64,000 bases of DNA from IMG/VR virus record IMGVR_UViG_3300034418_011550, positions 1 through 64,000 of that record. One strand, written 5' to 3'. Both the position numbers and the translations under genes were made by a program. The notes beneath the pieces are model-generated. The model saw nothing but the letters and a program-made list of their open reading frames with translations. It had not been told where the DNA came from and searched no databases. The DNA comes from a virus. This document shows positions 5,588-44,958 of this stretch, in pieces; position 1 is the first letter of the stretch; every line of letters starts with the position of its first letter.

Positions 5588-5598
5588 AAATGTTAAAT

Positions 5599-6954
5599 AT
5601 GGCAAAGAAAATTGTAATTGTAGGAGCAGGTGTAGCAGGTGTGAATGCTGCTACCAAATTAGTTGACAATGGTTATCCTGGAAAAGACATTACCATTATT
5701 GATATGGGTAATGATCCTTATAACAGGAAACCTGAAGAAGTAATGACTGGTTTCTTAGGAGCCGGTGGATGGTCAGATGGTAAACTTACTTACCATACAG
5801 CAATTGGAGGACAATTGTCTAAGTATGTTGGTGAGAAAAAAGCCATGCAATTAATGGATGAGGTAATTAATAACTTTAAACGTTTCCATCCTAAACCTGA
5901 GGAAGTACAATGTTCAAATCCAGAAGAAGAACCAGAGTTTATTAAGCCATATTTTGGTCTTCGTTTGTTTCCTGTATGGCATGTTGGTACAGATTATCTA
6001 CATGAGATTGGAAAAAATTGGTATGATTATTTAGTATCAAAAGGCATCAATTTTATTTGGAATGAAAAAGTATTCAAAGTTGACTTTGAATCAAATTTAG
6101 TATATTGTACTCATAAGGGTAAACAAGGAGAAAATGCTATTTCTTATGACCAATTGATTTTTGGAGTAGGTAAATCAGGTATTGACTTTGCTCAAGAAAT
6201 TCAAGAAGAATATCAATTAGAAACTGAACCTAAATCAGTTCAAATTGGTGTTCGATTTGAGGCACCACAAAAACATTTCCAAAAACTAATCGACATTAGT
6301 TACGATTTTAAGTTATATCGTAAATTTGAAGATAAAGGTGTTTCGCTTCGTTCATTCTGTACAAATAACAATGCCGCTTATGTTGCTGTAGAAGAAACAT
6401 ATGGAGATCATAGTTACAATGGTCACGCTAAAAAAGATAAAAAATATCTTAATAACATGACTAACTTTGGTATCTTGATGGAAATTAATGGTATTAAGAA
6501 TCCATTTGAATGGTCTCGTAATGTAGTAAATAAGTTACAATTTGGTGGTACTGGTTTATATTATTCTCCATCTCGTACTCCATCTAAAACATCTGAAGGA
6601 AATAAAGTTAGTGCTTTCCAAATTGATAATTTAAATGGTGTTAAACATGTAATGGGACAATATTGGAACTATATTGAAGACTTTATCGAGGATATGAAAA
6701 AAGTATTCCCAACACTTAAAGATGATTGGGGTGTTTATATTCCTGAAGTAAAATATTTGTCACCTGAACCACTTGTTTATGATAGTGATTTAGCTCTTAT
6801 TGATTATCCAAATGTTCACTTTGTAGGAGATGCTTTATCAGCTCGTGGTATTACAGTTTCAGGAGCTCAAGGTATTTTATCAGTTTCTAAAATTCTAAAA
6901 CCAATAGAAGACGAATGGGACAACCATATTGGTGACGTTATTCAATGGCGCTAG
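5599..6954 (+). CDS. FAD-dependent oxidoreductase (COG2509-like)
   Basis: IVIVGAGVAG Rossmann motif, GAGGWSDGKL, HVGTD, LRSFC, FVGDALSARGI. ATG 5599 preferred to 5590. Confidence 0.8.
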   Translation: MAKKIVIVGAGVAGVNAATKLVDNGYPGKDITIIDMGNDPYNRKPEEVMTGFLGAGGWSDGKLTYHTAIGGQLSKYVGEKKAMQLMDEVINNFKRFHPKPEEVQCSNPEEEPEFIKPYFGLRLFPVWHVGTDYLHEIGKNWYDYLVSKGINFIWNEKVFKVDFESNLVYCTHKGKQGENAISYDQLIFGVGKSGIDFAQEIQEEYQLETEPKSVQIGVRFEAPQKHFQKLIDISYDFKLYRKFEDKGVSLRSFCTNNNAAYVAVEETYGDHSYNGHAKKDKKYLNNMTNFGILMEINGIKNPFEWSRNVVNKLQFGGTGLYYSPSRTPSKTSEGNKVSAFQIDNLNGVKHVMGQYWNYIEDFIEDMKKVFPTLKDDWGVYIPEVKYLSPEPLVYDSDLALIDYPNVHFVGDALSARGITVSGAQGILSVSKILKPIEDEWDNHIGDVIQWR

Positions 6955-16071: not shown

Positions 16072-16112
16072 CTTCCAACACAATTTAATTGAGGAAAAAA
16101 CTAAAAAAAAGT

Positions 16113-17441
16113 ATGGCAAACAGAGACTTACTCAAAGAAGCCATTGCCGATGCCAAAGCTGTTAAGGAAACAGCCATCGCCAATGCAAAGGCTGCTCTTG
16201 AAGAAGCTTTTAGTCCTATGCTCCGTGAAAAGTTAGCTGCAAAGATAGCTGAAATGGACAAAATGGATGAAGCTGAAGAAGAAGTAACCGAAATGAAAGA
16301 AAAGGAAATCGAGGAAACTTACGACATGGATGAAGCGTATGACATGGATGAAGCCAAAGAAGAAATGAAAGAAGGCGAAGACATGGAAGAAGCAGAAGAC
16401 ATGAACGAGATGGACCTTGATGAACTTTTAAGAGAACTTGAAGACATGGATGAAAATGAAGAAATGTCTGAAGGTGAAGAAGAAGATTTAATGGAAGCTG
16501 AAGACGAAGAAGAAGGCGAAGAAACTGAAGAAACTGAAGAAGAAATCGACCTTGAAAACATGTCTGAAGACGACCTTAAAAAATTCATCGAAGATGTAAT
16601 CGCTGACATGGTTGAAGCTGGCGAATTAGAAGCTGGTGAAGGTATGGAAAGCGAAGAAGAAGATGAAGAAGAAGAAGGTGAAGAAGAAGTAGAAATTAAC
16701 GAACGTAAAAAGTACGGTGGTAACAAAGGTGATGTTCCTGCCTCTAAACGTGGTGACAAAAAAGACACTGCTGAAGAAGAGGGTGTTGAAGACTACAAAA
16801 AGAAAATGAAAGAAAACAAAGAACCAGTAAATGAAGTAGTAATGAGTACTGCTCTTCTTATGGCTGCAGGAATTATCTCAGGCCTTGTAGGTGCCGGTGT
16901 GATAACTACTAGTGTAAGCAAAAGGATGGATATCAAGAAAAAGACAGCAGAACTTATTGCAAACGGTATGCCTCCAGAAGAAGCAGCTAAAGAAGCTATT
17001 AAATTTGTTAAAGCTGACTACGATAAACCAGCTTATGGTACTGGTACTAGAGGAGGATTTAACCCTGGATCTAATCTTGAAGAAGATGAAAAAGAGTTAA
17101 ATGAAGCTTACAACACTATTAAAACCATTAAAAAAGAATTAGCTGAAGTTAACTTATTCAACGCAAAACTTCTTTACACTAACAAAATCTTCAAATCTAA
17201 AAACTTGACTGAAAGTCAAAAGGTTAAAGTATTAGCTGCTTTTGATAAAGCTGCTAGTGTTGAGGAAGCTAAATTAGTATTTGAAACTTTATCTGAAGGA
17301 TTCACTACTAAGAGAGCTCCTATGAATGAGTCATTAATCCGTGGTGGTGCCTCTAAAGCTGCTGGTGTAGCTACTAAGAAGCCAATTATGGAAGCTAATG
17401 ACCAGGTTGCTAGATGGCAAAAATTAGCCGGTATTAAATAA
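16113..17441 (+). CDS. Prohead scaffold/core protein (gp22-like)
   Basis: Very acidic, between protease and MCP; start moved to ATG 16113 (MANRDLLKEAIADAKAVKETAIANAK); C-terminal VNLFNAKLLYTNK and RWQKLAGI. Confidence 0.8.
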   Translation: MANRDLLKEAIADAKAVKETAIANAKAALEEAFSPMLREKLAAKIAEMDKMDEAEEEVTEMKEKEIEETYDMDEAYDMDEAKEEMKEGEDMEEAEDMNEMDLDELLRELEDMDENEEMSEGEEEDLMEAEDEEEGEETEETEEEIDLENMSEDDLKKFIEDVIADMVEAGELEAGEGMESEEEDEEEEGEEEVEINERKKYGGNKGDVPASKRGDKKDTAEEEGVEDYKKKMKENKEPVNEVVMSTALLMAAGIISGLVGAGVITTSVSKRMDIKKKTAELIANGMPPEEAAKEAIKFVKADYDKPAYGTGTRGGFNPGSNLEEDEKELNEAYNTIKTIKKELAEVNLFNAKLLYTNKIFKSKNLTESQKVKVLAAFDKAASVEEAKLVFETLSEGFTTKRAPMNESLIRGGASKAAGVATKKPIMEANDQVARWQKLAGIK

Positions 17442-17467: not shown

Positions 17468-19138
17468 ATGTCACAAGTACAACAATTATTAGAGAGCGCT
17501 GCAGGTTCTTGGAAGAATTTGCAAAGCGACGCAGCCAAATTGGCTGGTAAGTGGACTAAGACTGGTTTGTTGGAAGGTTTAGGCGAGATTGAGAAAAATA
17601 ACATGTCAGTCTTGTTGGAAAACCAAGCCAAGCAATTAGTAACTGAAACACAAAACATCATTTCTACTAACTCATATTTCACTTCTGGTACTCAGGGTGA
17701 GAACTGGGCTGGTATTGCTTTACCATTAGTACGTAAGGTATTCGGAACTATCGTAGCTAAAGAATTTGTTAGTGTTCAACCAATGAACATGCCTTCAGGT
17801 CTTGTGTTCTTCTTGGATTTCCAATATGGAGATACTAAGAACCCATTCACTGCTGGTGATTCTTTATATGGTACTAGAAACGCTTCTGGTCAGTTCCCAT
17901 TCCAAACTACTGAAACTGCTGGTGGTTTGTATGGTACAGGTAGGTTTACTTACTCAACTAACCAAACTTCATCTGTAGTAACTGTAACTTCAGCTTCAAA
18001 CTTCAGTTCAGCTTCTTTCCAAGATGTGAACTTTGATACTGATTACTCAGCTTCTGTAGCTAGAGGTGAGATCAAGAAAATTGCTATCTCTGCTTCAACT
18101 ACTAACTTAGCTGACTTCGATCCAGATGCTGTACGTGGTTTCATTATCACTTCAGGTTCAGAAATCGTTGCTGCTGATAACTTACAACAGTTCGCTACTT
18201 ACGATTACACTAACAACACTATTAACTTCTTTGTAACTGCTTCAGTTGCTGAATTGAATCCACCAGCCGGTGTTGGTGCTATGACAATCTTCTACAACAA
18301 GAAAACTGAAGATCGTTACAGAGGTGATTTTGAAGATTCAAGCTCATACGCTGTTCCAAACGCTGCTTCTGCAACTACTATCTCTATCCCACAGATTAAC
18401 GTTAAGATGCAGTCACAAGCTATCACTGCTAAAACTAAGAAGTTGAAGGCTGTATGGACTCCTGAGTTTGCTCAAGACTTAGCTGCTTACCAGAACATCG
18501 ATGCTGAAGCTGAATTGACTAACATCATGAGTGAGTACATTTCAATGGAAATTGATTTGGAAATCTTAGATATGTTGATCGAAGATGCTGCTGCTGGAAC
18601 TGAGTACTGGTCAGCTGTAAACAACACTGTAATTTCTGGTTCATTGCCAACTACTTTATCTTCAGGTTTCTACAACACTCAAGGTCAGTGGTTTGCTACT
18701 TTAGGAACTAAGTTACAGAAATTGTCTAACAAGATTCACCAGTTGACTTTGAGAGGCGGAGCTAACTTCTTAGTTACTTCTCCAACTGTAGCTACTATCT
18801 TGGAATCAATCCCAGGATTTGCTGCTAACTCAAACGGTGATGCCGCTCAAATGGAATACGCTTTCGGTGTACAGAAAGTTGGTGCCTTGAATAACAGATA
18901 CACTGTTTATAAGAACCCATACATGACTGAAAACTTGATCTTGATGGGCTACAAAGGTTCACAATTCTTGGAAACTGGTGCTGTATTTGCTCCATACATT
19001 CCATTGATCATGACTCCATTAGTGTACGATCCTGATACCTTCACTCCACGTAAAGGTTTATTGACTCGTTACGCTAAGAAGATGTTACGTCCTGAATTCT
19101 ACGCTAAGGTGTATGTTCACGGATTAAACACTATCTAA
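17468..19138 (+). CDS. Major capsid protein (T4 gp23-like)
   Basis: LPLVRKVF, VSVQPMNMPSGLVFFLDF, KTKKLKAVWTPEFAQDL, FAPYIPL, FTPRKGLLTRY; highly expressed codon bias. Confidence 0.96.
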   Translation: MSQVQQLLESAAGSWKNLQSDAAKLAGKWTKTGLLEGLGEIEKNNMSVLLENQAKQLVTETQNIISTNSYFTSGTQGENWAGIALPLVRKVFGTIVAKEFVSVQPMNMPSGLVFFLDFQYGDTKNPFTAGDSLYGTRNASGQFPFQTTETAGGLYGTGRFTYSTNQTSSVVTVTSASNFSSASFQDVNFDTDYSASVARGEIKKIAISASTTNLADFDPDAVRGFIITSGSEIVAADNLQQFATYDYTNNTINFFVTASVAELNPPAGVGAMTIFYNKKTEDRYRGDFEDSSSYAVPNAASATTISIPQINVKMQSQAITAKTKKLKAVWTPEFAQDLAAYQNIDAEAELTNIMSEYISMEIDLEILDMLIEDAAAGTEYWSAVNNTVISGSLPTTLSSGFYNTQGQWFATLGTKLQKLSNKIHQLTLRGGANFLVTSPTVATILESIPGFAANSNGDAAQMEYAFGVQKVGALNNRYTVYKNPYMTENLILMGYKGSQFLETGAVFAPYIPLIMTPLVYDPDTFTPRKGLLTRYAKKMLRPEFYAKVYVHGLNTI

Positions 19139-19162: not shown

Positions 19163-19193
19163 AAGGCCTAGGTTTTCCTAGGCCTTCTTTGTT
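19163..19193 (+). terminator. Rho-independent terminator after MCP
   Basis: AAGGCCTAGG-tttt-CCTAGGCCTT then CTTTGTT. Confidence 0.85.
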
Positions 19194-19208
19194 TCTAGGT
19201 ACCTACTA

Positions 19209-19218
19209 TATATTTATA
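19209..19218 (+). promoter_or_regulatory. Putative late promoter
   Basis: TATATTTATA 28 nt before ATG 19247. Confidence 0.55.
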
Positions 19219-19246: not shown

Positions 19247-20161
19247 ATGAAAGAAACACCAAGCCAGTTACCTCTGCAAAGTTATGTAATGAATTTTCCG
19301 TTCTCGCTTTCAACAGCGGATCCCAACAACATCTGGATGCAAGAGCTAACAGATGAAGAATTAACAATTAACAGACCTAAAGCATACAAGCAGTTTATGG
19401 ATTTGTATAACTTTATGGCTGGTCAATCACTTGTTCATTTATTACCTGCTGAAGGAAATTATCAAGACCAAGTATATGTAGCTAATTTAGGACTACAATT
19501 ACCTCATATTAAGGATGAAAATCATATTTTATTATCTAACTTTACTTCAGACCCTCGTAAGGGAGAAGAGCTTGTTGGTGAAAAATTCTTTAACCAAATG
19601 GGTTACAAAACTCATATCTCTCCTTTTAAATGGGAAGGTGAAGCTGATATCAAGTATTTATATGACAATGTATATATTGGGGGTTATGGTATTCGTTCCA
19701 ATATTAAGACTTATGAGTGGATGGAAAAAAACTTTGATATGGAAATTATCAAAGTAGCAATGACTGATGAGTATTTATATCATTTAGATTGTTCAATCTT
19801 TCCATTAAATCAAGACAAAACTTTGATTTGTACTGAACTGTTCGATCCTCAAGAGGTAGCGCAAATAGAACAGTATACTGAAATTATAGACGTAAATATT
19901 GATGATGCCTTGGGCGGAATGACAAACTCTGTACGCTTAGGAAACATGATTTTATGCGCGTCAAACATTGCTGAACTTAAAAAGTCTCATGAATATTATG
20001 AGGCTGAAAAACATAAAATTGAATCATTAGAAAAAATTTGTTCTGATGAAGGTATGGAACCAGTAATTTTCAACCTTTCAGAATATATGAAATCAGGTGC
20101 TATGTTATCATGTATGGTAATGCATTTGAATAGAGTTGACCATAATAAAACGTTATTATAA
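19247..20161 (+). CDS. Pentein (amidinotransferase / arginine dihydrolase / DDAH-like) enzyme
   Basis: DQVYVANLG, WEGEAD, YHLDCS, KSGAMLSCM with the catalytic His and Cys positions. Confidence 0.8.
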   Translation: MKETPSQLPLQSYVMNFPFSLSTADPNNIWMQELTDEELTINRPKAYKQFMDLYNFMAGQSLVHLLPAEGNYQDQVYVANLGLQLPHIKDENHILLSNFTSDPRKGEELVGEKFFNQMGYKTHISPFKWEGEADIKYLYDNVYIGGYGIRSNIKTYEWMEKNFDMEIIKVAMTDEYLYHLDCSIFPLNQDKTLICTELFDPQEVAQIEQYTEIIDVNIDDALGGMTNSVRLGNMILCASNIAELKKSHEYYEAEKHKIESLEKICSDEGMEPVIFNLSEYMKSGAMLSCMVMHLNRVDHNKTLL

Positions 20162-20910
20162 TGGCACAAACATTAGAAGATTGGTTAAACGGTGAGGTTA
20201 AAGAACTCTCTAAACTGCCTGTAGGTGAGCTAAGTAACACATTTTTCTTTAGAGATCCTATCCGTCCAAATTACATTGACCATGAACATTTCTATAGTCC
20301 AGCTGATGGAACCATCTTGTACCAAAAAGTTGTCCAACCAGATGAAGCAGTTGTAGAAATTAAAGGTATGAATTATACCTTAAAAGACGTAATGGGAGAT
20401 GATGAATATGATAAACCATCCTTAGTGATTGGTATTTTTATGTCATTCTATGATGTTCATATTAATAGAATTCCTTATGGAGGAATATTAACCTATGAAC
20501 ATTTAGAGCCTATTGAATCTACAAACTTACCCATGTTGGCGGTTGAGAAGGACATTTTAAATCAGGTAGTTAACCCGAACAACATGGAGTATTTAAAGTA
20601 CAATGAACGTATGTTTAACCAAATATATGTTCCTTCTTTAAACTACATATATTATTTAATACAAATAGCCGATGAAGACGTAAACGTAATTGCTCCATTT
20701 AAGAAGCAATTAGATCTTTGTGCTCAGAATGAAAGATTTAGCCTAATTAGATGGGGCTCTCAAGTAGATCTAGTATTACCACTAGATGGGAGGTTTGAAT
20801 TCGAGACAGTGTTAGACAATGCTATGCATGTTAATGCTGGACTTGATAAATTAGTAAAAATCAATATTAACAACAATGCCATCAAAACCACACACCGACG
20901 AGGTGCATAG
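20161..20910 (+). CDS. Pyruvoyl-dependent decarboxylase, phosphatidylserine-decarboxylase fold
   Basis: FYSPADG, IFMSFYDVHINRIP, self-cleavage motif RWG|SQVD; no N-terminal membrane helix; TAATG-coupled. Confidence 0.8.
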   Translation: MAQTLEDWLNGEVKELSKLPVGELSNTFFFRDPIRPNYIDHEHFYSPADGTILYQKVVQPDEAVVEIKGMNYTLKDVMGDDEYDKPSLVIGIFMSFYDVHINRIPYGGILTYEHLEPIESTNLPMLAVEKDILNQVVNPNNMEYLKYNERMFNQIYVPSLNYIYYLIQIADEDVNVIAPFKKQLDLCAQNERFSLIRWGSQVDLVLPLDGRFEFETVLDNAMHVNAGLDKLVKININNNAIKTTHRRGA

Positions 20911-21610
20911 ACAACAACGAGTGATAAAAAATCCTATTAAATTCAAAATACAACTTAACGAAGAGCAAAAATTAGCTAAAGAAGAAATACTAAATAATAC
21001 TTTAACCTTACTAGCAGGTTCAGCTGGTTCAGGTAAAACATTATTAGCAGTTCAAGTAGCTTTAGATGGTCTTATAAGAAGACATTACGAAAAAATTATT
21101 ATAACTAGACCAACAGTGTCTAAAGAAGAAATAGGATTTCTACCAGGAGACTTAAGAGAAAAAATGGATCCTTGGATACAACCTATCTACCAAAACATGT
21201 ATGCTCTTTATGATAAAGAAAAAGTAGAAAAACTTATTGAAGACGGAAAAATTGAAATTGTACCTTTAGCCTTTATGAGAGGTAGAACATTTTTAGATTC
21301 TTGCATTATTGTAGATGAAGCACAAAACGTAACTCACGAACAGATGGAAATGATTGCTACTCGTATTGGTTTACGAAGCAAAATGATTGTTTGTGGAGAT
21401 GACCATCAGGTAGACTTAAAAGCAAAACGTGATTCTGGCTTTAGATTTTTATACACAGCAGCTCGTAAAGTTAAAAATATGGCTGCTATTACTTTAAAAC
21501 AAAATCATAGAGACCCGATTGTAGAAGATTTAATAAATATTTATGAAGAGGCAGCAGAACGAGGTCTTAATTTAGGAACCTCAGGAACTAATGGAACTTC
21601 AAAGAGATAA
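20876..21610 (+). CDS. phoH: PhoH-family ATPase
   Basis: GSAGSGKT, ITRPTV, IGFLPGDLREKMDPW, PLAFMRGRTF, DEAQN. Confidence 0.95.
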   Translation: MPSKPHTDEVHRQQRVIKNPIKFKIQLNEEQKLAKEEILNNTLTLLAGSAGSGKTLLAVQVALDGLIRRHYEKIIITRPTVSKEEIGFLPGDLREKMDPWIQPIYQNMYALYDKEKVEKLIEDGKIEIVPLAFMRGRTFLDSCIIVDEAQNVTHEQMEMIATRIGLRSKMIVCGDDHQVDLKAKRDSGFRFLYTAARKVKNMAAITLKQNHRDPIVEDLINIYEEAAERGLNLGTSGTNGTSKR

Positions 21611-26068: not shown

Positions 26069-29000
26069 ATGGCTAAAGTTAGATATCTTGATCAGGTACC
26101 CGTTGGTGTTTACAATACAGCTGGCTCCGGCGGTACTGGTGCTATTGATATATATTATACTGGCTCCTTAATAAAAGCTAGTGCTCCTTTTATCAATTTT
26201 ACCGGCTCAGCTGAAGCTTTCACAGAAGTAATATCTGGGACTGAAGGAGTAACAGTTTATATATCAGGTTCAGGAGTTGGATTTCCATTCTCAGGATCAG
26301 CAGTAATTACAGGTTCATTAGTAATTTCAGGTTCAGCAGAACCTATTATAATTCAAACATTACCATATGAAGCTAGTCCTTCATATGTTGTAACATATGT
26401 TCCTGCCTCAGGAGTATTAGAATATTCTGATATGCCATCAGATGGTACTTCAGGTTCAAGCGGCTCTTCAGGAACAAGCGGTAGCTCAGGTTCATCCGGC
26501 ACTTCAGGAAGTTCTGGTTCTAGTGGAACAAGTGGTTCTTCAGGAACATCAGGTTCTAGTGGAACATCTGGCTCAAGTGGTTCTAGTGGTACATCAGGTT
26601 CATCAGGCTCATCTGGTTCAAGTGGTACTAGCGGCTCATCAGGTTCATCTGGCACTTCAGGTAGTTCAGGTTCAAGTGGTTCAAGTGGAACAAGTGGTTC
26701 ATCTGGCTCTTCAGGTACTTCTGGTTCTTCAGGAACATCAGGTTCATCTGGCACTTCTGGTTCCTCAGGTACATCAGGCTCAAGTGGCACTTCAGGTTCA
26801 TCTGGAACCTCAGGTTCTTCAGGTTCATCAGGTACTAGTGGCTCTTCAGGTTCATCAGGTTCATCAGGTTCTAGTGGTTCAAGTGGAACTTCTGGTTCAT
26901 CTGGATCTAGTGGAACCTCAGGAAGCTCAGGCTCATCTGGCTCATCAGGCTCAAGTGGAACTAGTGGTAGTTCAGGCTCATCAGGAACCTCAGGTTCTTC
27001 AGGGTCTAGTGGAACATCAGGAGTTAGTGGTATATCAAGTGGATTAGTTTATTATTATGACGGACCAACAGCATCACAAACAGTTCCTATAACATCTTTA
27101 ATTACCGATGATTTAATTTTATTCCCTAATACAGGATCACAAACAACTATTTCAACAACAAGTTTTGATCCTGCGGATGGAGACACTGAAATAGTTCAAT
27201 ATGTTACTCCATCAGCATCTTTAGCTACAACAGTAATAGTTCCTGGGTTATGGGTAAATAATTTATTTGCACAAAGAACAGCTGGAACAGGTACTCTTGT
27301 TTATTGGATTGTTATTGATGAAATGCAATCTAATGGAACAACTCTTATTGCTAATATTGCATCAGGAAATGCTGGTTCGGGTACTCCTATTACTAATACC
27401 CAAAACAATTATATTTATTCTTTATATGTTCCTTCATATGTTTTAGCATCAGTTAACTCAAGAATTAGAGTTAGTGTTTACGCAAACACAACAGGTAATA
27501 ATACTGCGTTTGATATTGAAATGAGAGATAATACTCTCTCAAACATAGTAACAACATTAGCTGCTAATATAGCTGGAACTTCAGGAACAAGCGGTAGCTC
27601 AGGTTCATCTGGCACTTCAGGAAGTTCTGGTTCTAGTGGAACAAGCGGTTCTTCAGGTTCATCTGGTACTTCTGGGTCATCAGGATCTAGTGGTACTAGT
27701 GGCAGTTCAGGTTCTAGCGGAACAAGCGGTTCTTCTGGCTCTTCAGGAACTTCAGGTATAGATGGAACAAGCGGCTCATCAGGATCTAGTGGTACATCAG
27801 GTAGTTCAGGTTCTTCTGGAACTAGTGGCTCATCTGGTACTTCTGGTTCATCAGGTTCAAGCGGAACTTCAGGTTCATCTGGAAGTTCAGGTACTTCTGG
27901 CTCATCAGGTAGTTCAGGTACTTCAGGCTCATCAGGCACTTCAGGCTCATCAGGCACTTCAGGCTCATCTGGAAGTTCAGGTACATCTGGTTCATCAGGT
28001 TCATCAGGAACAAGCGGCTCATCAGGTAGTTCAGGTACTTCTGGCTCATCAGGTAGTTCAGGTACCTCTGGTTCATCAGGTACCTCTGGCTCATCAGGTA
28101 GTTCAGGTACTTCAGGTTCATCAGGTAGCTCTGGTTCTTCAGGTACCTCTGGTTCATCTGGTTCTAGTGGAACAAGCGGTTCATCTGGTACTAGTGGTAG
28201 TTCAGGTACTTCAGGTTCATCCGGTACTTCAGGTAGTTCTGGTTCTAGTGGAACTAGCGGTTCATCAGGCACTTCAGGTAGCTCTGGTTCTTCAGGCACT
28301 TCAGGCTCATCAGGTTCATCAGGTACAAGTGGCTCAAGTGGCAGCTCAGGTACTTCAGGTATAAGTGGTGTTAATGGAACTTCAGGTTCTAGCGGCACTT
28401 CAGGTTCTTCAGGAACCTCAGGCTCATCAGGCAGTTCAGGAACTAGTGGTTCTAGTGGTACTTCTGGTTCATCTGGATCAAGTGGCACCTCAGGTTCATC
28501 TGGAACTTCAGGTAGTTCAGGTTCATCAGGAACAAGTGGTTCAAGTGGTTCAAGTGGTTCTTCAGGAACTAGTGGCTCATCAGGCTCATCAGGTACAAGT
28601 GGCTCATCAGGCAGCTCAGGTACTTCAGGTATAAGTGGTGTAAATGGTACTAGCGGTTCTTCAGGAACCTCAGGTTCAAGTGGTACTTCAGGCAGCTCAG
28701 GTTCATCAGGAACATCAGGTGTTGACGGTACTTCTGGATCAAGTGGCACCTCAGGTTCATCTGGAAGTTCAGGAACTTCAGGTTCATCAGGAACAAGTGG
28801 TTCTTCAGGAACTTCAGGTTCAAGTGGTTCAAGCGGAACAAGTGGCTCAAGTGGTTCTTCTGGGACAAGTGGTTCATCAGGTACTTCAGGTTCATCAGGT
28901 ACCTCAGGCTCATCAGGCAGCAGTGGTACATCAGGTATAAGTGGAGTAAACGGAACTAGCGGCTCATCAGGATCAAGTGGAACATCAGGTTCTTCCGGTT

Positions 29001-32000
29001 CATCAGGAACATCTGGTTCTTCTGGAACATCTGGCTCAAGCGGAACTAGTGGTTCATCAGGTTCATCTGGCACTTCAGGTTCATCAGGTTCTAGTGGAAC
29101 TTCAGGTTCATCAGGTAGTTCAGGAACTAGTGGCTCAAGTGGAACAAGTGGTTCCTCAGGAACTAGCGGCTCATCAGGTTCATCAGGTACAAGCGGCTCA
29201 AGTGGCAGCTCAGGTACTTCAGGTATATCAGGTGTAAACGGTACATCTGGCTCAAGCGGAACAAGCGGTTCTTCAGGAACTAGCGGTTCATCAGGTTCTA
29301 GTGGTACTTCAGGAAGCTCTGGTTCTTCAGGAACTAGTGGTTCATCAGGTACTTCAGGCTCTTCAGGTTCATCAGGAACTAGTGGATCTAGTGGGACATC
29401 TGGTTCTTCAGGAACAAGTGGATCTTCTGGTTCATCAGGAACTAGCGGTAGTTCAGGTTCATCAGGAACTAGTGGTTCATCAGGCTCGTCAGGAACTAGT
29501 GGAATTTCAGGTATAAATGGTACTAGTGGTTCATCAGGAACTAGCGGTAGTTCAGGAACATCAGGTTCATCAGGTTCATCTGGAACAAGCGGTTCAAGCG
29601 GAAGTTCAGGTACATCTGGTTCATCAGGTACTTCAGGAAGTTCAGGTTCAAGTGGTTCATCAGGAACTAGCGGTTCATCAGGTTCATCAGGTACTAGCGG
29701 TTCTAGTGGAACTAGTGGTTCTTCAGGAACATCAGGTAGTTCCGGTTCATCAGGTACTTCAGGTTCATCTGGTTCCTCAGGTTCAAGTGGATCTTCAGGT
29801 TCATCTGGTTCAAGTGGTACATCAGGTAGCTCAGGTACTAGTGGTTCTTCTGGTTCATCAGGCACTTCAGGCTCATCGGGTTCAAGTGGAACTAGTGGTT
29901 CTTCAGGTTCAAGTGGCACTTCAGGTATAAGTGGTATAAATGGTACCTCTGGTTCATCAGGAACTAGTGGCTCATCAGGAACTTCTGGCTCAAGTGGTTC
30001 ATCAGGAACTAGCGGTAGTTCAGGTTCATCAGGAACTTCAGGAAGTTCAGGTACATCTGGTTCATCTGGTTCATCTGGTTCATCTGGTTCAAGCGGAACA
30101 AGCGGTTCTAGCGGTACTTCAGGATCAAGTGGTTCAAGCGGAACTTCAGGTTCATCTGGTTCTTCTGGTACAAGCGGAAGTAGTGGTACAAGTGGCTCGT
30201 CAGGAACAAGTGGAAGCTCAGGCTCATCAGGAAGTTCAGGTTCAAGCGGTTCATCAGGAACTTCAGGCTCGTCAGGAACAAGTGGAAGCTCAGGTACTTC
30301 AGGATCAAGTGGCTCATCAGGTACTAGTGGTTCATCAGGAAGCAGTGGTACTTCAGGTATAAGTGGTGTAAACGGAACTAGTGGTAGTTCTGGTTCATCA
30401 GGCACAAGCGGTAGTTCAGGTTCAAGTGGTTCAAGTGGAACAAGTGGTTCTTCTGGTTCTTCAGGTACTTCTGGTTCTTCAGGAACATCAGGTTCATCTG
30501 GCACTTCAGGCAGCTCAGGTTCAAGTGGTTCATCAGGAACAAGTGGCTCTTCAGGAAGCAGTGGTACTTCAGGGTCAAGTGGATCAAGCGGCACTTCAGG
30601 TAGTTCAGGTTCAAGTGGAACTAGCGGTTCATCAGGTAGTTCAGGCAGCTCAGGTAGTTCAGGTTCATCAGGAACAAGTGGTTCTTCTGGTTCATCAGGA
30701 ACAAGTGGTTCTTCAGGTTCATCAGGAACATCTGGCTCAAGTGGTTCATCAGGTAGCTCAGGCACTTCAGGTATAAGCGGTGTAAACGGAACTTCAGGTT
30801 CAAGTGGTTCAAGTGGAACAAGTGGTTCATCTGGCTCTTCAGGAACAAGTGGCTCTTCAGGTTCATCAGGAACTAGTGGCTCATCAGGTAGTTCTGGCTC
30901 ATCTGGTACTTCAGGTTCATCAGGTAGTTCAGGAACTAGTGGTTCATCTGGCACTAGTGGTTCATCAGGTTCTTCAGGAACTTCTGGCTCATCAGGCTCA
31001 TCTGGTTCATCTGGTACTTCAGGATCATCAGGTTCATCAGGTACTTCTGGTTCAAGTGGCTCATCAGGAACAAGTGGTTCTTCAGGTTCATCAGGAACTA
31101 GTGGTAGTTCAGGTTCAAGTGGTTCATCTGGCACATCTGGTAGTTCAGGGAGTTCAGGCACTTCAGGTTCAAGTGGCTCATCAGGAACTTCAGGTATATC
31201 AGGTGTAAATGGAACTAGCGGATCTTCAGGTTCATCAGGAACAAGTGGCTCAAGTGGTTCTAGTGGAACTAGTGGTTCATCAGGATCTAGTGGAACAAGC
31301 GGTAGTTCAGGTTCATCAGGAACTAGCGGCTCATCAGGTTCATCAGGAACATCAGGTAGTTCAGGTTCATCCGGAACAAGTGGTTCTTCAGGCACGTCTG
31401 GTTCTTCAGGAACTAGCGGTTCATCTGGAACATCTGGCTCATCAGGTTCATCAGGTACATCTGGCTCATCAGGTAGTTCTGGCTCATCTGGTACTTCAGG
31501 TTCATCAGGAACAAGTGGTTCATCAGGATCAAGCGGTACCTCAGGATCAAGTGGTTCATCAGGAACTAGCGGTTCTAGTGGCTCATCAGGTACATCCGGA
31601 AGCTCAGGCTCATCCGGCACATCAGGTATAAGCGGTGTTAATGGAACATCAGGTAGCTCAGGAACATCAGGTTCATCTGGTACTTCAGGTTCAAGCGGAA
31701 CTTCAGGTTCTTCAGGTTCATCTGGAACTAGTGGTAGCTCAGGTTCTTCAGGTACATCAGGTTCAAGTGGAACAAGTGGTTCAAGCGGAACAAGTGGTTC
31801 ATCTGGAAGTTCTGGAACAAGCGGTTCTTCTGGTTCAAGTGGAACATCAGGAAGTTCAGGTACATCAGGTTCTTCTGGTTCAAGCGGAACTTCAGGTTCA
31901 TCTGGCTCATCTGGAACTAGTGGTTCTTCTGGTTCAAGTGGTACTAGTGGTTCATCTGGAACAAGCGGTTCAAGTGGAACTTCAGGTTCAAGTGGTTCAT

Positions 32001-35000
32001 CAGGAACCAGTGGTAGTTCAGGTTCATCAGGAACTAGCGGCTCATCAGGTTCATCAGGAACATCAGGTAGTTCAGGTTCATCCGGAACAAGTGGTTCTTC
32101 AGGTTCATCAGGTACTAGTGGTTCATCTGGTTCATCTGGTTCAAGCGGAACTTCTGGTTCATCAGGTTCATCAGGTACTTCTGGTTCATCAGGAAGCAGT
32201 GGTACTTCAGGTATAAGCGGTGTTAATGGAACAAGTGGTTCAAGCGGTTCTTCAGGTTCATCAGGATCTTCAGGTACAAGCGGTTCATCAGGTTCAAGTG
32301 GCACAAGCGGTTCAAGTGGTAGTTCAGGTACAAGCGGTTCATCAGGTTCATCAGGGTCCTCAGGTACAAGTGGTTCATCCGGCTCATCAGGAACATCAGG
32401 TTCTTCAGGAACATCTGGTAGTTCAGGTTCTTCAGGAACTAGTGGTTCATCTGGCTCATCTGGCTCATCAGGTACTAGTGGCTCATCAGGCTCATCTGGT
32501 ACTTCAGGTTCTTCAGGCACTAGTGGTTCAAGTGGTTCATCAGGTACATCAGGTAGTTCTGGCAGCTCAGGAACTTCTGGCTCATCAGGCTCATCTGGAA
32601 CTTCTGGCTCATCAGGTAGCAGTGGTACTTCAGGTATAAGCGGTGTAAACGGAACTTCTGGTTCATCAGGTTCATCAGGAACTTCAGGTTCATCAGGGTC
32701 CTCAGGTACAAGTGGTTCATCTGGTTCTTCAGGCACCTCTGGTTCTTCTGGCTCATCTGGAACTTCTGGTTCATCAGGATCTAGTGGTACTAGCGGTTCA
32801 AGTGGTTCTTCAGGAACTAGTGGTTCATCTGGTTCATCTGGTTCAAGTGGTACATCAGGTTCTTCAGGTTCTTCAGGTACAAGTGGATCAAGTGGAACCT
32901 CAGGCAGCTCAGGTTCATCAGGAACTTCAGGATCATCAGGCAGTTCAGGTTCAAGTGGAACAAGCGGAAGTTCAGGATCTTCAGGTACTTCAGGTTCATC
33001 TGGCTCATCTGGATCAAGTGGAACTTCAGGTTCATCAGGATCTTCAGGTACAAGTGGCTCATCAGGAACTAGTGGAAGTTCAGGTTCATCAGGTACTTCT
33101 GGTTCTAGTGGTTCTAGCGGCTCAAGCGGAACAAGTGGTTCAAGCGGTAGTTCAGGTACCTCAGGCTCATCTGGTTCTTCAGGTACATCAGGTATAAGTG
33201 GTGTTAATGGAACTAGCGGTTCATCTGGATCAAGTGGAACATCAGGTTCAAGTGGTTCATCAGGAACAAGTGGTTCAAGTGGTTCTTCTGGGACAAGTGG
33301 TTCAAGCGGAACATCAGGTAGCTCAGGTTCTTCAGGTACAAGTGGATCAAGTGGAACCTCAGGCAGCTCAGGTTCATCAGGAACTTCAGGATCATCAGGC
33401 AGTTCAGGTTCAAGTGGAACAAGCGGAAGTTCAGGTACTTCAGGAAGTTCTGGTTCTTCAGGTACAAGCGGTTCATCTGGTACTTCAGGTTCAAGTGGAA
33501 CTAGTGGTTCATCTGGTTCATCAGGATCATCTGGTTCTTCAGGAACTTCTGGCTCTTCAGGAACTAGTGGTTCATCAGGAACATCAGGTTCAAGTGGTTC
33601 ATCAGGTACATCAGGCAGCTCAGGTAGCTCAGGTACATCAGGCATATCAGGTGTAAATGGAACAAGCGGTTCATCAGGAACTTCAGGTTCTAGTGGTTCA
33701 TCAGGAACAAGCGGTTCATCAGGAACTTCAGGTTCATCTGGAACAAGTGGTAGTTCAGGTTCAAGTGGAACATCAGGCAGCTCAGGTTCAAGCGGAACTA
33801 GTGGTTCAAGCGGTTCATCAGGCACTTCAGGTTCATCTGGATCTAGTGGAACAAGTGGTTCAAGTGGTACTTCAGGTTCATCAGGCACTTCAGGTTCATC
33901 TGGTTCATCAGGTACTAGTGGTTCAAGCGGTTCATCAGGAACAAGCGGTTCAAGCGGTACTTCAGGTAGTTCAGGTACTTCAGGATCATCTGGCTCAAGT
34001 GGTACTTCAGGTTCATCTGGTTCAAGCGGAACTAGTGGTTCATCAGGTTCATCAGGTACTTCAGGATCTTCAGGATCTTCAGGTACTTCAGGTATAAGTG
34101 GTGTTAATGGTACTTCTGGTTCCTCAGGAACTAGCGGTTCATCAGGCACTTCAGGTTCAAGTGGTTCATCAGGAACTAGTGGATCAAGTGGTTCTAGCGG
34201 GACAAGTGGTTCAAGCGGTTCATCTGGAACATCAGGTTCTTCTGGTTCCTCAGGAACTAGTGGCTCAAGCGGTACTAGTGGAAGCTCAGGCTCATCAGGA
34301 ACATCTGGTAGTTCTGGTAGTTCAGGTACTAGTGGTAGTTCTGGTACTTCAGGTTCAAGCGGAACTAGTGGTTCATCAGGTTCATCAGGAACTTCTGGCT
34401 CATCTGGTTCATCAGGAATATCAGGAAGTTCAGGAACATCTGGCTCAAGCGGCTCATCAGGAACTAGTGGTTCTTCAGGTTCAAGTGGAACTAGTGGTTC
34501 TAGTGGAACTTCAGGTTCTTCAGGAACAAGTGGTTCTAGTGGCACTTCAGGTTCAAGTGGCTCATCAGGAACTTCTGGATCAAGCGGTTCATCAGGTACA
34601 TCAGGCTCAAGTGGCTCAAGTGGTTCAAGTGGTACTTCAGGAAGCTCAGGTTCAAGCGGAACAAGCGGCTCATCAGGAACTAGTGGTTCATCTGGCTCAA
34701 GTGGAACATCAGGTTCATCAGGAACAAGCGGCTCATCAGGAACAAGTGGAAGCTCTGGAACATCAGGTTCTAGTGGCTCATCAGGTACAAGTGGCTCATC
34801 AGGTAGCTCAGGTACCTCAGGTATATCAGGTGTAAATGGTACTTCAGGTTCTTCAGGAACTAGCGGAAGTTCAGGAACATCTGGCTCATCAGGCTCATCT
34901 GGTACTTCAGGTTCAAGTGGTTCATCAGGAACTAGTGGAAGCTCAGGTACTTCAGGTTCTTCAGGTACATCAGGCTCTTCTGGAACATCAGGTTCTAGTG

Positions 35001-44120: not shown

Positions 44121-44958
44121 TCAAGATTGGAAAATAACACCCTATGCTACTATGGAGATTACAACTAATCTACCTAAAAAAGGCTGTGTTGTTGATTGCA
44201 TTTTTTGTCCTCAAAGAACTTTAGTTAAAAATTATAATGGAACCCGTCATTTATCTTTAGATGACTTTAAAAGAGCAATAGATAAAATCCCAACAGAAGT
44301 TAGAATTACTTTTGCTGGTTTTACTGAACCTTGGACTAATAGGCATTGTACTGATATGTTACTTTACGCTTATGAAAAAGGACATAGAATAGCAGCATTT
44401 ACTACAGCTGTAGGAATGACAGTAGATGATGTAGAAAGACTTAAAGATGTTTCCTATGATAATGGTCCTAACGCTGGTTTTGTTTTACATTTACCTGACC
44501 AAGAAAGATTAGCAAAACATCCTATAACTCCTCGTTATATAGAAGTTATTGAAGCTTTCGGGCTCTATCAAGATTCTTTTAACACATTTCATTTAATGTC
44601 AATGGGTACTGTCCATGAATCTATTAATCATATTTTTAGTCATGCTAGCAATCCTGAAATGTGGTCTAGAGCAGGAAACTTAATAGGTGAAGCCATTCTA
44701 AAACCAGAACTGCTAAATGTTAAAGAATTATTCAGATCAGTATATCATGGTGAGTCACCTAAAACATGCGGCTGTATAGAAAATTTATACCATAACGTGA
44801 TGCTTCCAAACGGAGATGTATCTTTATGTTGTATGGATTATTCTTTAAGTTATATTATAGGAAATATGTTTGAACAAGAATATGAAGATGTTATTCCAAA
44901 ATTAAATTCTTGTTATGATATGTGTCGTTATTGTGAAAATGGAATTAACCCTAATTAA
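44113..44958 (+). CDS. Radical SAM protein with SPASM/twitch domain
   Basis: CVVDCIFCPQ (CxxxCxxC), FAGFTEP, C...PNGDVSLCCMD...IGN...CRYC. Confidence 0.88.
   Translation: MANQDWKITPYATMEITTNLPKKGCVVDCIFCPQRTLVKNYNGTRHLSLDDFKRAIDKIPTEVRITFAGFTEPWTNRHCTDMLLYAYEKGHRIAAFTTAVGMTVDDVERLKDVSYDNGPNAGFVLHLPDQERLAKHPITPRYIEVIEAFGLYQDSFNTFHLMSMGTVHESINHIFSHASNPEMWSRAGNLIGEAILKPELLNVKELFRSVYHGESPKTCGCIENLYHNVMLPNGDVSLCCMDYSLSYIIGNMFEQEYEDVIPKLNSCYDMCRYCENGINPN

What the first reader, a model, noticed from the sequence alone, without database searches (positions are those of the whole stretch)
19247..20910. Coupled arginine-dihydrolase-like and pyruvoyl decarboxylase genes: candidate new polyamine route
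Seen: two TAATG-coupled enzymes after the MCP terminator under a late-type motif. The pentein has VAN-G / EG-D / YHLD / C motifs as in ArgZ-type dihydrolases (Arg to ornithine). The PSD-fold protein keeps WG|S self-cleavage but lacks a membrane anchor. Known: T4 heads contain polyamines; PSD-fold enzymes are known mainly for lipid substrates. Inference: Arg to Orn to putrescine (or Arg to agmatine to putrescine) for DNA packaging or base modification; lipid remodelling with PhoH is the alternative.
Basis: partly seen in the sequence, partly recalled or inferred. Interest (0 to 1): 0.7.

Follow-up and report, generated by a model that had tools for sequence, protein, structure and literature searches.

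The report
Phage arginine-to-putrescine enzyme pair (predicted)
Right after its capsid gene this uncultured T4-like marine phage carries two coupled enzyme genes, always found side by side in unrelated phages and in several bacterial phyla, that most likely turn arginine into the DNA-binding diamine putrescine by a route that no paper I could find describes.

Summary
Two genes overlap by one base (TAATG). The first is a 304-aa pentein (19247-20161). The second is a 249-aa soluble relative of phosphatidylserine decarboxylase (PSD; 20161-20910). They lie behind the capsid-gene terminator and behind a motif (ATATTTATA) that precedes many structural genes.

The pentein is closest to the cyanobacterial arginine dihydrolases ArgZ/AgrE and keeps every ArgZ residue I could map.

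The PSD-like protein keeps the self-cleavage set (D49/D98-H100-G199|S200). It lacks the phosphate-binding Tyr/Arg and most of the membrane-binding N-terminus of true PSDs.

The refutation test "genes not co-conserved" fails clearly:
- the genes are adjacent in 78/78 assessable related viral contigs and in Bacteroides phages;
- both are present in Campylobacter Fletcherviruses;
- they are adjacent in 33/33 pairs from Actinomycetota, Verrucomicrobiota and Pseudomonadota. Neighbours there include exporters in three lineages, and in single lineages a PotD/PotF-like binding protein, agmatine deiminase or NRPS genes.

Best reading (about 50%): arginine to ornithine to putrescine, made late in infection. 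The chemistry is inferred, not shown. Lipid remodelling is unlikely.

Earlier agents of this scan reached the same reading on related genomes. I found no publication on the pair.

The parts
19163..19196 (+). Intrinsic terminator after the major capsid gene (stem-loop 19163-19186, then a T-rich tail)
   Evidence: 10 pairs, 6 G-C, loop of 4, tail CTTTGTTTCT; sequence
19210..19218 (+). ATATTTATA motif shared with structural genes; candidate promoter element of the cassette
   Evidence: 14 copies against 4.2 expected, 13 on the + strand, most just upstream of structural gene starts. ATAT[T/G]TATA conserved about 29-43 nt upstream of the pentein ATG in all 37 distinct upstream sequences compared
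19247..20161 (+). Pentein (guanidino-group-modifying enzyme), ArgZ-like; predicted arginine dihydrolase. Catalytic Cys289 codon at 20111-20113
   Evidence: sequence; AF2 pLDDT 89.8; Foldseek: ArgZ/AgrE E 2e-21, TM 0.80/0.88, rmsd 2.2 A; N80, R104, E130, R150, H179, D181, C289 invariant in 24 sequences
20159..20163 (+). TAATG stop/start overlap coupling the two genes
20161..20910 (+). Soluble PSD-fold protein; predicted pyruvoyl-dependent amino-acid decarboxylase. Predicted self-cleavage between G199 and S200 (codons 20755-20760) would give a 199-aa beta chain and a 50-aa alpha chain
   Evidence: sequence; AF2 pLDDT 93.4; fold: E. coli PSD Z 13.1, PsiD 11.1, Ao-ADC1 10.4; conservation in 78 cluster representatives
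20876..21610 (+). PhoH-like ATPase gene, overlapping the end of the decarboxylase gene by 35 nt. A conserved downstream neighbour in the marine lineage only; no functional link shown
   Evidence: PhoH 3.7e-66; present downstream in every related viral locus that reaches that far; absent next to the pair in the Bacteroides phage and in bacteria

Best explanation
The two genes form a self-contained two-step pathway from L-arginine to putrescine.

Step 1 (inferred from structure and residues): the pentein acts like the N-terminal domain of ArgZ/AgrE. It hydrolyses the guanidino group of free L-arginine twice, giving L-ornithine, two ammonia and CO2.

Step 2 (inferred): the PSD-fold protein cleaves itself between G199 and S200, which creates an N-terminal pyruvoyl group on a 50-residue alpha chain. 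It then decarboxylates ornithine to putrescine through a Schiff base. PsiD does this with tryptophan and Ao-ADC1 with arginine.

Timing and purpose: the cassette lies in the head and neck gene block, behind its own terminator and behind a motif shared with structural genes. It is therefore probably expressed late, when DNA is packaged. The proposed purpose, raising the pool of a DNA counter-ion, is the weakest and purely inferred step. Drawing down arginine or releasing ammonia is an alternative purpose for the same chemistry.

In bacteria the same pair sits beside efflux pumps and, in places, polyamine or peptide-assembly genes. That fits a module that supplies or secretes a diamine.
For: 1. 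Coupling is shown.
- TAATG overlap.
- Pentein directly upstream of the PSD-like gene in 78 of 78 related viral loci that reach that far.
- Adjacent in 6 Bacteroides phages; both present but about 43 kb apart in 39-40 Fletchervirus records.
- Adjacent in 31 bacterial loci, in the opposite gene order, on contigs of up to 756 kb.
- Two further paralogous pairs in Allokutzneria.
- Pairwise distances of the two proteins over 32 loci correlate at r = 0.94, and the same subclades appear in both trees.

2. The pentein resembles ArgZ.
- Best solved relatives are ArgZ/AgrE by sequence (E 3e-15; profile 5e-27).
- They are also best by fold (E 2e-21, TM 0.88 on the ArgZ domain, rmsd 2.2 A). DDAH scores 5e-13, amidinotransferases 1e-12 to 1e-10, and C. 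jejuni agmatine deiminase 4.5e-10.
- ArgZ N71, R90, E118, R139, H168, D170 and C264 align with N80, R104, E130, R150, H179, D181 and C289. All are invariant in 24 phage and bacterial sequences.
- The PDB titles show that N71S traps an intermediate and that C264 is the nucleophile.
- The two arginines match by spacing the carboxylate-binding arginines of DDAH (my own knowledge). This argues for an alpha-amino-acid substrate, not agmatine.
- In AgrE the same domain is fused to an ornithine-consuming domain (NCBIfam name; PDB title). An ornithine-using partner therefore has a precedent.

3. The decarboxylase looks active and non-lipid.
- The E. coli maturation set D90/D142-H144-S254 (PMC7952604) corresponds to D49/D98-H100-S200. 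These are conserved in 85-99% of 78 cluster representatives.
- The phosphate-binding Tyr137 (Tyr or Arg throughout PSDs, PMC7952604) is Phe in 73 of 78, as in PsiD F289.
- The N-terminus before PADG is 41 residues shorter than in E. coli PSD (D49 against D90), and there is no hydrophobic segment.
- The family-specific acidic residues E129 and D171 align within PsiD pocket loops 3 and 4 (PMC11929908). That fits a cationic side chain.
- Five bacterial genomes each hold a separate, higher-scoring canonical PSD.

4. Polyamine context.
- A PotD/PotF-like binding protein next to the pair in Verrucomicrobiales, and agmatine deiminase in Pseudonocardiaceae.
- MATE, ABC or MFS exporters beside the pair in several phyla.
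- The Verrucomicrobiales genome has only one alanine-racemase-fold decarboxylase, no clear OKR_DC_1 enzyme and no agmatine deiminase, yet it has a spermidine-synthase-like gene. This is weak support, because the completeness of that genome is unknown.
Against: - No activity has been measured for any member of either family.
- Both proteins score far below NCBI's equivalog cut-offs (85.8 against 450 bits for arginine dihydrolase; 68.8 against 183 for PSD). Neither is a close orthologue of a characterised enzyme.
- Nothing here distinguishes ornithine from arginine, lysine or citrulline as the decarboxylase substrate. The only characterised basic-amino-acid enzyme of this fold (Ao-ADC1) uses arginine.
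- An agmatine deiminase gene next to some bacterial pairs fits an agmatine route at least as well.
- The roles of R104 and R150 rest on analogy and on my memory of DDAH; the ArgZ and AgrE papers are not held here.
- Five near-complete relatives of this phage encode no enzyme that would use putrescine.
- In Fletcherviruses the genes are not adjacent.
- NRPS, lanthipeptide and exporter neighbours in actinomycetes could equally point to a specialised metabolite.
Confidence: 0.5

Rival explanations
1. Agmatine route. The PSD-fold enzyme is an arginine decarboxylase like Ao-ADC1 (arginine to agmatine). The pentein then hydrolyses agmatine, or N-carbamoylputrescine made by a host agmatine deiminase, to putrescine.
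For: - Ao-ADC1 is the only characterised PSD-fold enzyme acting on a basic amino acid, and it matches the model (Foldseek E 1.6e-3, VIA Z 10.4; PMC12904898).
- An agmatine deiminase gene lies two genes downstream of the pair in four Pseudonocardiaceae loci.
- In bacteria the decarboxylase gene comes first.
- By my own knowledge (not checked here), the hosts C. jejuni and Bacteroides make putrescine through agmatine.
- The second half-reaction of ArgZ is a ureido hydrolysis, so an ArgZ-like enzyme acting on a carbamoyl amine is chemically conceivable.
Against: - The pentein keeps both arginines (R104, R150) that align with the alpha-carboxylate-binding pair of ArgZ and DDAH, invariant in 24 of 24 sequences. 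Agmatine and N-carbamoylputrescine have no carboxylate.
- Its fold is far closer to ArgZ than to agmatine deiminase (2e-21 against 4.5e-10).
- Most bacterial loci have no agmatine deiminase nearby, and two genomes carrying the pair show none at all.
Confidence: 0.17
2. Specialised guanidino or amine metabolite. The pentein transfers an amidino group, or hydrolyses an arginine analogue. The decarboxylase trims an amino acid to give a small cationic compound. Bacteria would export it or build it into peptides. The phage would use it for some host-directed purpose.
For: - Exporters flank the pair in Actinomycetota, Verrucomicrobiota and Pseudomonadota.
- An NRPS C-A-T module follows the pair in Streptosporangium, and a LanM-type synthetase lies beside one Allokutzneria copy.
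- Public records annotate the phage gene as an amidinotransferase.
- The NCTC12673 record notes similarity of its PSD-like protein to an ORF of record AF210249. From memory I take that record to be an actinomycete antibiotic gene cluster; I did not check this.
Against: - Solved amidinotransferases are clearly more distant than ArgZ (TM about 0.6 on the target against 0.88; they are about 360 aa against about 300 here).
- The Asn that aligns with ArgZ N71 is invariant.
- Phages carry the pair alone, without an exporter, NRPS or any acceptor-making gene.
Confidence: 0.13
3. Building block for a DNA or virion modification. The amine made by the pair would be attached to DNA bases (as putrescine is in putrescinyl-thymine phages) or to a virion component.
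For: - Fletcherviruses have heavily modified DNA, with dG replaced by dI (PMC13091555).
- The nearest cultured relative by capsid protein, Flavobacterium phage immuto_2-6A (57% identity), carries 7-deazaguanine DNA (PMC10516641).
- The cassette sits in the late head-gene block.
Against: - Phage immuto lacks the pair.
- No TGT/DpdA-type gene was detected in five near-complete relatives. A very divergent DpdA could have been missed.
- The known modifications of these phages need neither enzyme.
- The same pair occurs in many bacteria beside exporters, not beside DNA-modification genes.
Confidence: 0.05
4. Lipid remodelling. The second protein is a true phosphatidylserine decarboxylase making phosphatidylethanolamine, perhaps working with PhoH.
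For: - Pfam PS_Dcarbxylase 2.7e-24, and E. coli PSD is the best structural match (Z 13.1).
- Public annotation calls it phosphatidylserine decarboxylase.
- PhoH is adjacent in the marine lineage.
Against: - The phosphate-binding Tyr/Arg is replaced by Phe.
- The membrane-binding N-terminal domain is truncated and no hydrophobic segment exists.
- All NCBIfam PSD equivalog cut-offs are missed by a wide margin.
- Bacteria with the pair keep a separate canonical PSD.
- The constant partner is an arginine-type hydrolase, which has no role in lipid synthesis.
- PhoH is not adjacent outside the marine lineage.
Confidence: 0.03

Closest known systems
ArgZ (Synechocystis Sll1336) and AgrE (Anabaena Alr4995) arginine dihydrolases, N-terminal domain (PDB 6juy-6jv1, 6lrf-6lrh)
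   Same: Same fold (TM 0.80-0.88, rmsd 2.2 A, E 2e-21). The Cys-His-Glu catalytic set is the same. So are the Asn that aligns with N71 and the two arginines that align with R90 and R139. In AgrE this domain is likewise coupled to an ornithine-consuming activity.
   Different: Only 22-23% identical. It is a stand-alone protein of about 300 aa without the C-terminal ornithine-cyclodeaminase-like domain. It scores 85.8 bits against an NCBIfam cut-off of 450. Its partner is a separate PSD-fold protein. It is found in phages, Actinomycetota, Verrucomicrobiota and Pseudomonadota rather than in cyanobacteria.
E. coli phosphatidylserine decarboxylase (PDB 7cnw, 6l06)
   Same: Same family (PF02666) and fold (VIA Z 13.1). 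It shares the Gly-Ser cleavage site, the His (H144 = H100) and both Asp residues (D90/D142 = D49/D98), and the NER motif.
   Different: 17-20% identical. It lacks most of the N-terminal amphipathic membrane domain. Phe replaces the phosphate-binding Tyr137. The cleavage motif reads WGSQ, not LGST. It is acidic and soluble. It is always paired with a pentein.
Aspergillus oryzae Ao-ADC1 (PDB 9jer) and Psilocybe PsiD (PDB 8x4q, 8zia): PSD-fold pyruvoyl decarboxylases of free amino acids
   Same: Soluble PSD-fold enzymes that self-cleave at Gly-Ser and decarboxylate a free L-amino acid (PMC12904898, PMC11929908). Phe occupies the PSD Tyr137 position in PsiD as it does here. Fold matches are Z 10.4 and 11.1.
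   Different: Both are fungal, about 440-480 aa with extra N-terminal helical regions, and only 10-14% identical. Ao-ADC1 is not detected by the family's sequence profile. Neither has a pentein partner. An ornithine-specific member of this fold has not been described in the papers I could search.
Known virus-encoded polyamine enzymes (AdoMetDC-fold ornithine and arginine decarboxylases of phages; the PBCV-1 ADC-AIH-NCPAH-HSS pathway)
   Same: These are viral genes that make diamines from arginine or ornithine, some of them with a pyruvoyl cofactor (PMC9992855, PMC10407285).
   Different: The folds differ (AdoMetDC or alanine-racemase fold against PSD fold; agmatine deiminase against ArgZ-like). 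The survey in PMC9992855 does not mention phosphatidylserine decarboxylase homologues, amidinotransferases or Campylobacter phages.

Membership tests
ArgZ/AgrE-type arginine dihydrolase | Pentein fold closest to the ArgZ N-terminal domain | tested here: met
   Foldseek E 2e-21, TM 0.88 on target, rmsd 2.2 A; the next family (DDAH) scores 5e-13
ArgZ/AgrE-type arginine dihydrolase | Catalytic Cys264, His168 and Glu118 | tested here: met
   C289, H179 and E130 align with them and are invariant in 24 sequences
ArgZ/AgrE-type arginine dihydrolase | Asn71, needed to complete the double hydrolysis (the N71S mutant traps an intermediate, PDB 6juz) | tested here: met
   N80 aligns with N71 and A79-N80 is invariant
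ArgZ/AgrE-type arginine dihydrolase | NCBIfam equivalog score (NF052232 cut-off 450 bits; NF052231 cut-off 1025 bits) | tested here: not met
   85.8 and 82.7 bits. It is a distant relative, not an orthologue.
ArgZ/AgrE-type arginine dihydrolase | C-terminal ornithine-cyclodeaminase-like domain (proteins of about 700 aa) | tested here: not met
   The protein is 304 aa. The longer homologues found are intein-bearing proteins or a probable mis-called start, not fusions with such a domain.
ArgZ/AgrE-type arginine dihydrolase | Converts L-arginine to L-ornithine, 2 NH3 and CO2 | not testable with these tools
   Needs an enzyme assay.
Agmatine deiminase (PF04371) | Match to the PAD_porph family and fold | tested here: not met
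   No PF04371 hit at E <= 0.1. C. jejuni agmatine deiminase scores only 4.5e-10 with TM 0.59. A genuine AguA lies nearby in some bacterial loci as a separate gene.
Amidinotransferase (AGAT, SxtG, HsvA type) | Closest fold and size (about 360 aa) | tested here: inconclusive
   These are matched at 1e-12 to 1e-10 with TM on target of about 0.6, clearly behind ArgZ. Transfer chemistry cannot be excluded from sequence.
Phosphatidylserine decarboxylase (EC 4.1.1.65) | PF02666 domain and PSD fold | tested here: met
   Pfam 2.7e-24; Foldseek 1.2e-6 and VIA Z 13.1 to E. coli PSD
Phosphatidylserine decarboxylase (EC 4.1.1.65) | Self-cleavage residues Asp/Asp-His-Ser with a Gly-Ser site | tested here: met
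   D49, D98, H100 and G199-S200 align with D90, D142, H144 and G253-S254. They are conserved in 85-99% of 78 representatives (PMC7952604). Cleavage itself is untested.
Phosphatidylserine decarboxylase (EC 4.1.1.65) | Phosphate-binding Tyr137 (Tyr 85% or Arg 15% across PSDs) | tested here: not met
   Phe93 here; Phe in 73 and Tyr in 5 of 78 family representatives
Phosphatidylserine decarboxylase (EC 4.1.1.65) | N-terminal amphipathic membrane-association domain | tested here: not met
   PADG begins at residue 47 against 88 in E. coli. The model aligns from E. coli residue 39 onward. No hydrophobic segment exists (maximum KD19 of 0.95).
Phosphatidylserine decarboxylase (EC 4.1.1.65) | NCBIfam PSD equivalog cut-offs | tested here: not met
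   The best is 68.8 bits against a cut-off of 183; all 15 models fall below their cut-offs.
PSD-fold amino-acid decarboxylases (PsiD, Ao-ADC1) | Soluble PSD-fold protein with Gly-Ser self-cleavage acting on a free amino acid | tested here: inconclusive
   The fold and the cleavage residues are shared, and Phe occupies the Tyr137 position as in PsiD. Substrate is untested, and the sequence relationship is remote (PsiD E 0.0055; Ao-ADC1 not detected by the profile).

The most novel reading that the evidence does not exclude
The pair is a previously unrecognised, self-sufficient arginine to ornithine to putrescine pathway. Its second enzyme would be the first ornithine decarboxylase of the PSD fold. 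The module would have spread between bacteria and at least three unrelated groups of large myoviruses. Phages would switch it on with their structural genes to make their own DNA counter-ion or to reprogram host polyamine and arginine pools. A still bolder variant that the data do not exclude: the product is a different cationic amine that phages attach to DNA or virions and that bacteria export.
Probability: 0.45. Interest if true: 0.75.

Novelty: new variant of a known kind. Interest (0 to 1): 0.62.

Why it matters
Polyamines are needed for phage DNA condensation and for translation, and virus-encoded polyamine enzymes are a recent topic.

If the prediction holds:
- It adds a fourth structural solution for ornithine or arginine decarboxylation in polyamine synthesis (PSD fold, beside the alanine-racemase, aspartate-aminotransferase and AdoMetDC folds).
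- It gives a two-step bypass of the three-step agmatine route.
- It would re-annotate roughly two thousand metagenomic protein clusters of each family (1980 and 1317 at 90% identity), which sources that name them now call 'phosphatidylserine decarboxylase', 'dimethylarginine dimethylaminohydrolase' or 'amidinotransferase'. These include abundant marine phages of probable Flavobacteriia hosts, gut Bacteroides phages and the Campylobacter Fletcherviruses used in biocontrol.
- It would give a handle on why these phages invest in arginine catabolism.

Both genes are more conserved than the capsid gene among relatives, and both families occasionally host inteins. That suggests strong selection.

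The bacterial versions, next to exporters and peptide-assembly genes, may mark unexplored diamine-containing or secreted metabolites.

Tried and rejected
Contexts of distant family members were obtained from the search for related loci instead.
- No whole genome is held for the window.
- The ArgZ and AgrE structure papers are not held. Residue roles come from PDB titles, from alignments, and from my own knowledge of DDAH.

Searches that gave nothing:
- The 78-sequence alignment A3 was too diverse for the search for related loci; the 4-sequence A2 worked.
- Rosetta-stone fusion of the two enzymes: none found. Long PSD-like proteins carry an intein, an ADP-ribosyltransferase or Acb1, or unassigned tails. 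Long pentein hits carry inteins or are a probable mis-called start.
- Downstream polyamine genes in five 92-100% complete relatives: no deoxyhypusine/homospermidine synthase, spermidine synthase, AdoMetDC, saccharopine-dehydrogenase-type enzyme or Orn/Arg decarboxylase. No TGT either.
- Ao-ADC1 was not detectable with the family's sequence profile even at E 10.
- Ten literature searches found no paper treating the pair. The one paper that holds both enzyme names together with 'phage' has them only in its reference list.

Idea considered and dropped:
- I first thought the PSD triad His was missing, because R103 aligns with E. coli H147. This was withdrawn: mutagenesis shows that H144 (= H100) is the key residue and H147 is dispensable (PMC7952604).

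Unexplained or too weak to use:
- A pentein-only hit in one Xanthomonas phage was not examined.
- Up-regulation of host argBCD during NCTC12673 infection (PMC6024767) is compatible with arginine drain but too indirect to count as evidence.
Full report
**What is there.** The window is part of an uncultured T4-like myovirus.
- All long ORFs run on the + strand.
- They include a T4-type large terminase, a portal protein, a gp23-type major capsid protein (17468-19138) and a tail sheath.
- The nearest cultured capsid protein is that of Flavobacterium phage immuto_2-6A (57% identity).
- A near-identical gene block sits on a contig binned with a Flavobacteriales MAG (L084). A Bacteroidota host is therefore likely but not shown.
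- The two ORFs of the finding are exactly as described: 19247-20161 (304 aa) and 20161-20910 (249 aa), sharing one base in TAATG.
- A strong terminator (19163-19186) follows the capsid gene.
- The 9-mer ATATTTATA at 19210 is one of 14 copies in the window (4.2 expected; none of 100 shuffles reaches 14). Thirteen are on the coding strand, most a few to about 30 nt before structural gene starts.
- A variant of the motif is conserved upstream of the pentein in all 37 distinct upstream sequences compared, while the flanks differ.
- So the cassette is insulated and carries the same signal as the structural genes. That the signal is a late promoter is inference.

**The first enzyme.**
- Pfam gives only a weak DDAH hit. 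NCBIfam ranks the arginine dihydrolase domain first, far below its cut-off.
- Against solved structures the only significant sequence relatives are ArgZ and AgrE (E 3e-15; with a 24-sequence profile 5e-27).
- An AlphaFold model (pLDDT 89.8) matches the ArgZ domain at TM 0.88 and rmsd 2.2 A (E 2e-21). That is eight orders of magnitude ahead of DDAH and further ahead of amidinotransferases, agmatine deiminase and AstB.
- I read the HMMER alignments with the construct offset of 21. ArgZ N71, R90, E118, R139, H168, D170 and C264 correspond to N80, R104, E130, R150, H179, D181 and C289.
- All seven residues are invariant in an alignment of phage and bacterial members that are only 43-52% identical to the window protein.
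- PDB titles document C264 as the nucleophile and N71S as trapping a covalent intermediate.
- The two arginines sit at the spacing of the alpha-carboxylate-binding arginines of DDAH (my own knowledge). This argues that the substrate is a free amino acid such as arginine rather than agmatine.

**The second enzyme.**
- It is a PF02666 protein (2.7e-24) but misses every NCBIfam PSD cut-off.
- The model (pLDDT 93.4) matches only the three solved kinds of PSD-family enzyme: E. coli PSD, PsiD and Ao-ADC1. Beyond them it matches the generic EIIA/LytM hybrid fold.
- I first worried that the triad histidine was missing, because R103 aligns with E. coli H147. Mutagenesis in PMC7952604 shows that D90/D142-H144-S254 drive maturation and that H147 is dispensable.
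- The equivalents D49, D98, H100 and G199-S200 are kept in 85-99% of 78 representatives of 50%-identity clusters.
- The same paper shows that Tyr137 binds the lipid phosphate and is Tyr or Arg throughout PSDs. Here the position is Phe in 73 of 78 members, as in PsiD.
- The N-terminal membrane-association domain is largely absent, and no hydrophobic stretch exists.
- Two acidic residues specific to this family (E129, D171; 96-97% conserved) align within the loops that form the PsiD substrate pocket (PMC11929908). That fits a positively charged side chain.
- Five bacterial genomes that carry the pair also have a separate, much higher-scoring canonical PSD.
- The lipid reading is therefore unlikely. 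A soluble pyruvoyl amino-acid decarboxylase is the natural reading, with direct precedent in PsiD (tryptophan) and Ao-ADC1 (arginine).

- In the 78 of 80 related viral contigs that extend upstream, the pentein directly precedes the PSD-like gene, between the capsid gene and phoH.
- Both enzymes are more conserved (72-100% and 77-98%) than the capsid protein (58-100%).
- Among isolated phages, both genes occur in the Campylobacter Fletcherviruses (40 and 39 records, about 43 kb apart) and in six Bacteroides phages (adjacent, same order). They occur almost nowhere else.
- In one-genome-per-species bacterial data, 31 loci carry the PSD-like gene immediately followed by the pentein. They come from Actinomycetota, Verrucomicrobiota and Pseudomonadota and lie on contigs of up to 756 kb.
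- Allokutzneria has three copies of the PSD-like gene, each with its own pentein.
- Distances of the two proteins across 32 loci correlate at r = 0.94, and both trees recover the same subclades, with the phage sequences outside the bacterial group. Relatedness alone would produce part of this correlation. Adjacency in both gene orders across phyla is the stronger argument.
- No fusion of the two proteins was found.

**What the neighbours say.**
- Next to the bacterial pairs lie exporters: an MsbA-type ABC exporter in actinomycetes and a Methylococcaceae MAG, MATE in Verrucomicrobiales and Lysobacterales, and MFS in Lysobacterales.
- There is a PotD/PotF-like polyamine-binding protein with a sensor kinase in Verrucomicrobiales, and an agmatine deiminase in four Pseudonocardiaceae loci.
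- There is an NRPS C-A-T module in Streptosporangium, and a LanM-type enzyme beside one Allokutzneria copy.
- This points to a small cationic amine that is secreted, sensed or built into peptides.
- The Verrucomicrobiales genome shows only one alanine-racemase-fold decarboxylase, no clear OKR_DC_1 enzyme and no agmatine deiminase, but it has a spermidine-synthase-like gene. This fits the pair being its diamine source. The completeness of that MAG is unknown.
- In phages the pair stands alone. Five 92-100% complete relatives lack any recognisable enzyme that would use putrescine, and lack a TGT-type DNA-modification enzyme.

**Mechanism and rivals.**
- Best supported (about 0.5): arginine is hydrolysed to ornithine by the ArgZ-like enzyme, and ornithine is decarboxylated to putrescine by the PSD-fold enzyme, late in infection.
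- Shown: gene structure, coupling, co-conservation, fold, retention of catalytic residues, and loss of lipid-binding features.
- Inferred: both substrates, self-cleavage, timing and purpose.
- Main rival (about 0.17): an agmatine route, with the decarboxylase acting on arginine as Ao-ADC1 does. The AguA neighbour favours it. The invariant carboxylate-binding arginines and the fold ranking of the pentein count against it.
- A specialised guanidino or amine metabolite (about 0.13), a DNA or virion building block (about 0.05) and true lipid PSD activity (about 0.03) follow.

**Novelty.**
- PHROGs lists both families as of unknown function. Public records call them amidinotransferase, DDAH or phosphatidylserine decarboxylase.
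- The survey of virus-encoded polyamine enzymes does not mention them, and ten full-text searches found no study of the pair.
- Earlier agents of this scan reported the same pair, with the same reading, on related genomes. I re-derived the evidence independently here, but those notes are not independent confirmation.
- I rate this a new variant of a known kind: known folds and known chemistry in a new combination and a new setting.

Noticed in passing
window 3530, 7773, 10830, 12752, 14785, 19210, 21610, 23413, 51503, 53611, 55252, 57889 (+ strand): ATATTTATA is strongly enriched and strand-specific. It often ends only 3-22 nt before a structural gene's start codon, which is too close for a classical -10 element plus leader. 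It may mark very short leaders or combine promoter and translation signals in this Bacteroidota-type phage.
   Followed up: partly
window 26069-37738 (+): A 3889-aa ORF with many internal in-frame sub-ORFs and a 3179-aa antisense ORF. This suggests a highly repetitive, compositionally biased giant structural (fibre-like) protein.
   Followed up: no
P0245 (PSD-like); P0391 and P0393 (pentein): Some metagenomic homologues of both enzymes are interrupted by inteins with LAGLIDADG endonuclease domains. In Campylobacter phage NCTC12673 a homing endonuclease gene overlaps the 3' end of the PSD-like gene (L083 6731-8185).
   Followed up: partly
P0244 and P0249: PSD-like domains appear fused to an ADP-ribosyltransferase plus a VapB-like region (1114 aa) and to the anti-CBASS protein Acb1 (390 aa). 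These may be real fusions or read-through gene calls in phages.
   Followed up: no
L117 (Allokutzneria copy 2), L089 and L110 (Streptosporangium): Bacterial copies of the pair lie beside a LanM-type lanthipeptide synthetase with a LuxR regulator, and beside an ABC exporter followed by an NRPS C-A-T module. These may be gene clusters for amine-capped peptides.
   Followed up: partly
window 44113-44958 and 47716-49995: A radical-SAM/SPASM protein and a 759-aa double glycosyltransferase (GT4 plus GT9-like) lie between the giant ORF and the tail sheath gene, among ORFs with no family assignment.
   Followed up: no
window 5590-6954: A 454-aa FAD/NAD(P)-binding oxidoreductase (Pyr_redox_2) lies in the packaging and head gene block, upstream of the terminase.
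   Followed up: no
window 16089-17441: The ORF before the capsid gene has a long Glu/Asp-rich low-complexity region, with a serine-rich antisense ORF as its mirror. By position it is a probable scaffold protein.
   Followed up: no
L084 (MAG contig NZWA01000018.1) and L085 (CAZLOF010000040.1): Two short contigs binned into Flavobacteriales and 'Thermoflexus' MAGs carry the phage-type gene order (L084 also carries the capsid gene). They are probably phage DNA mis-binned or captured during infection. L084 gives a weak host hint.
   Followed up: partly
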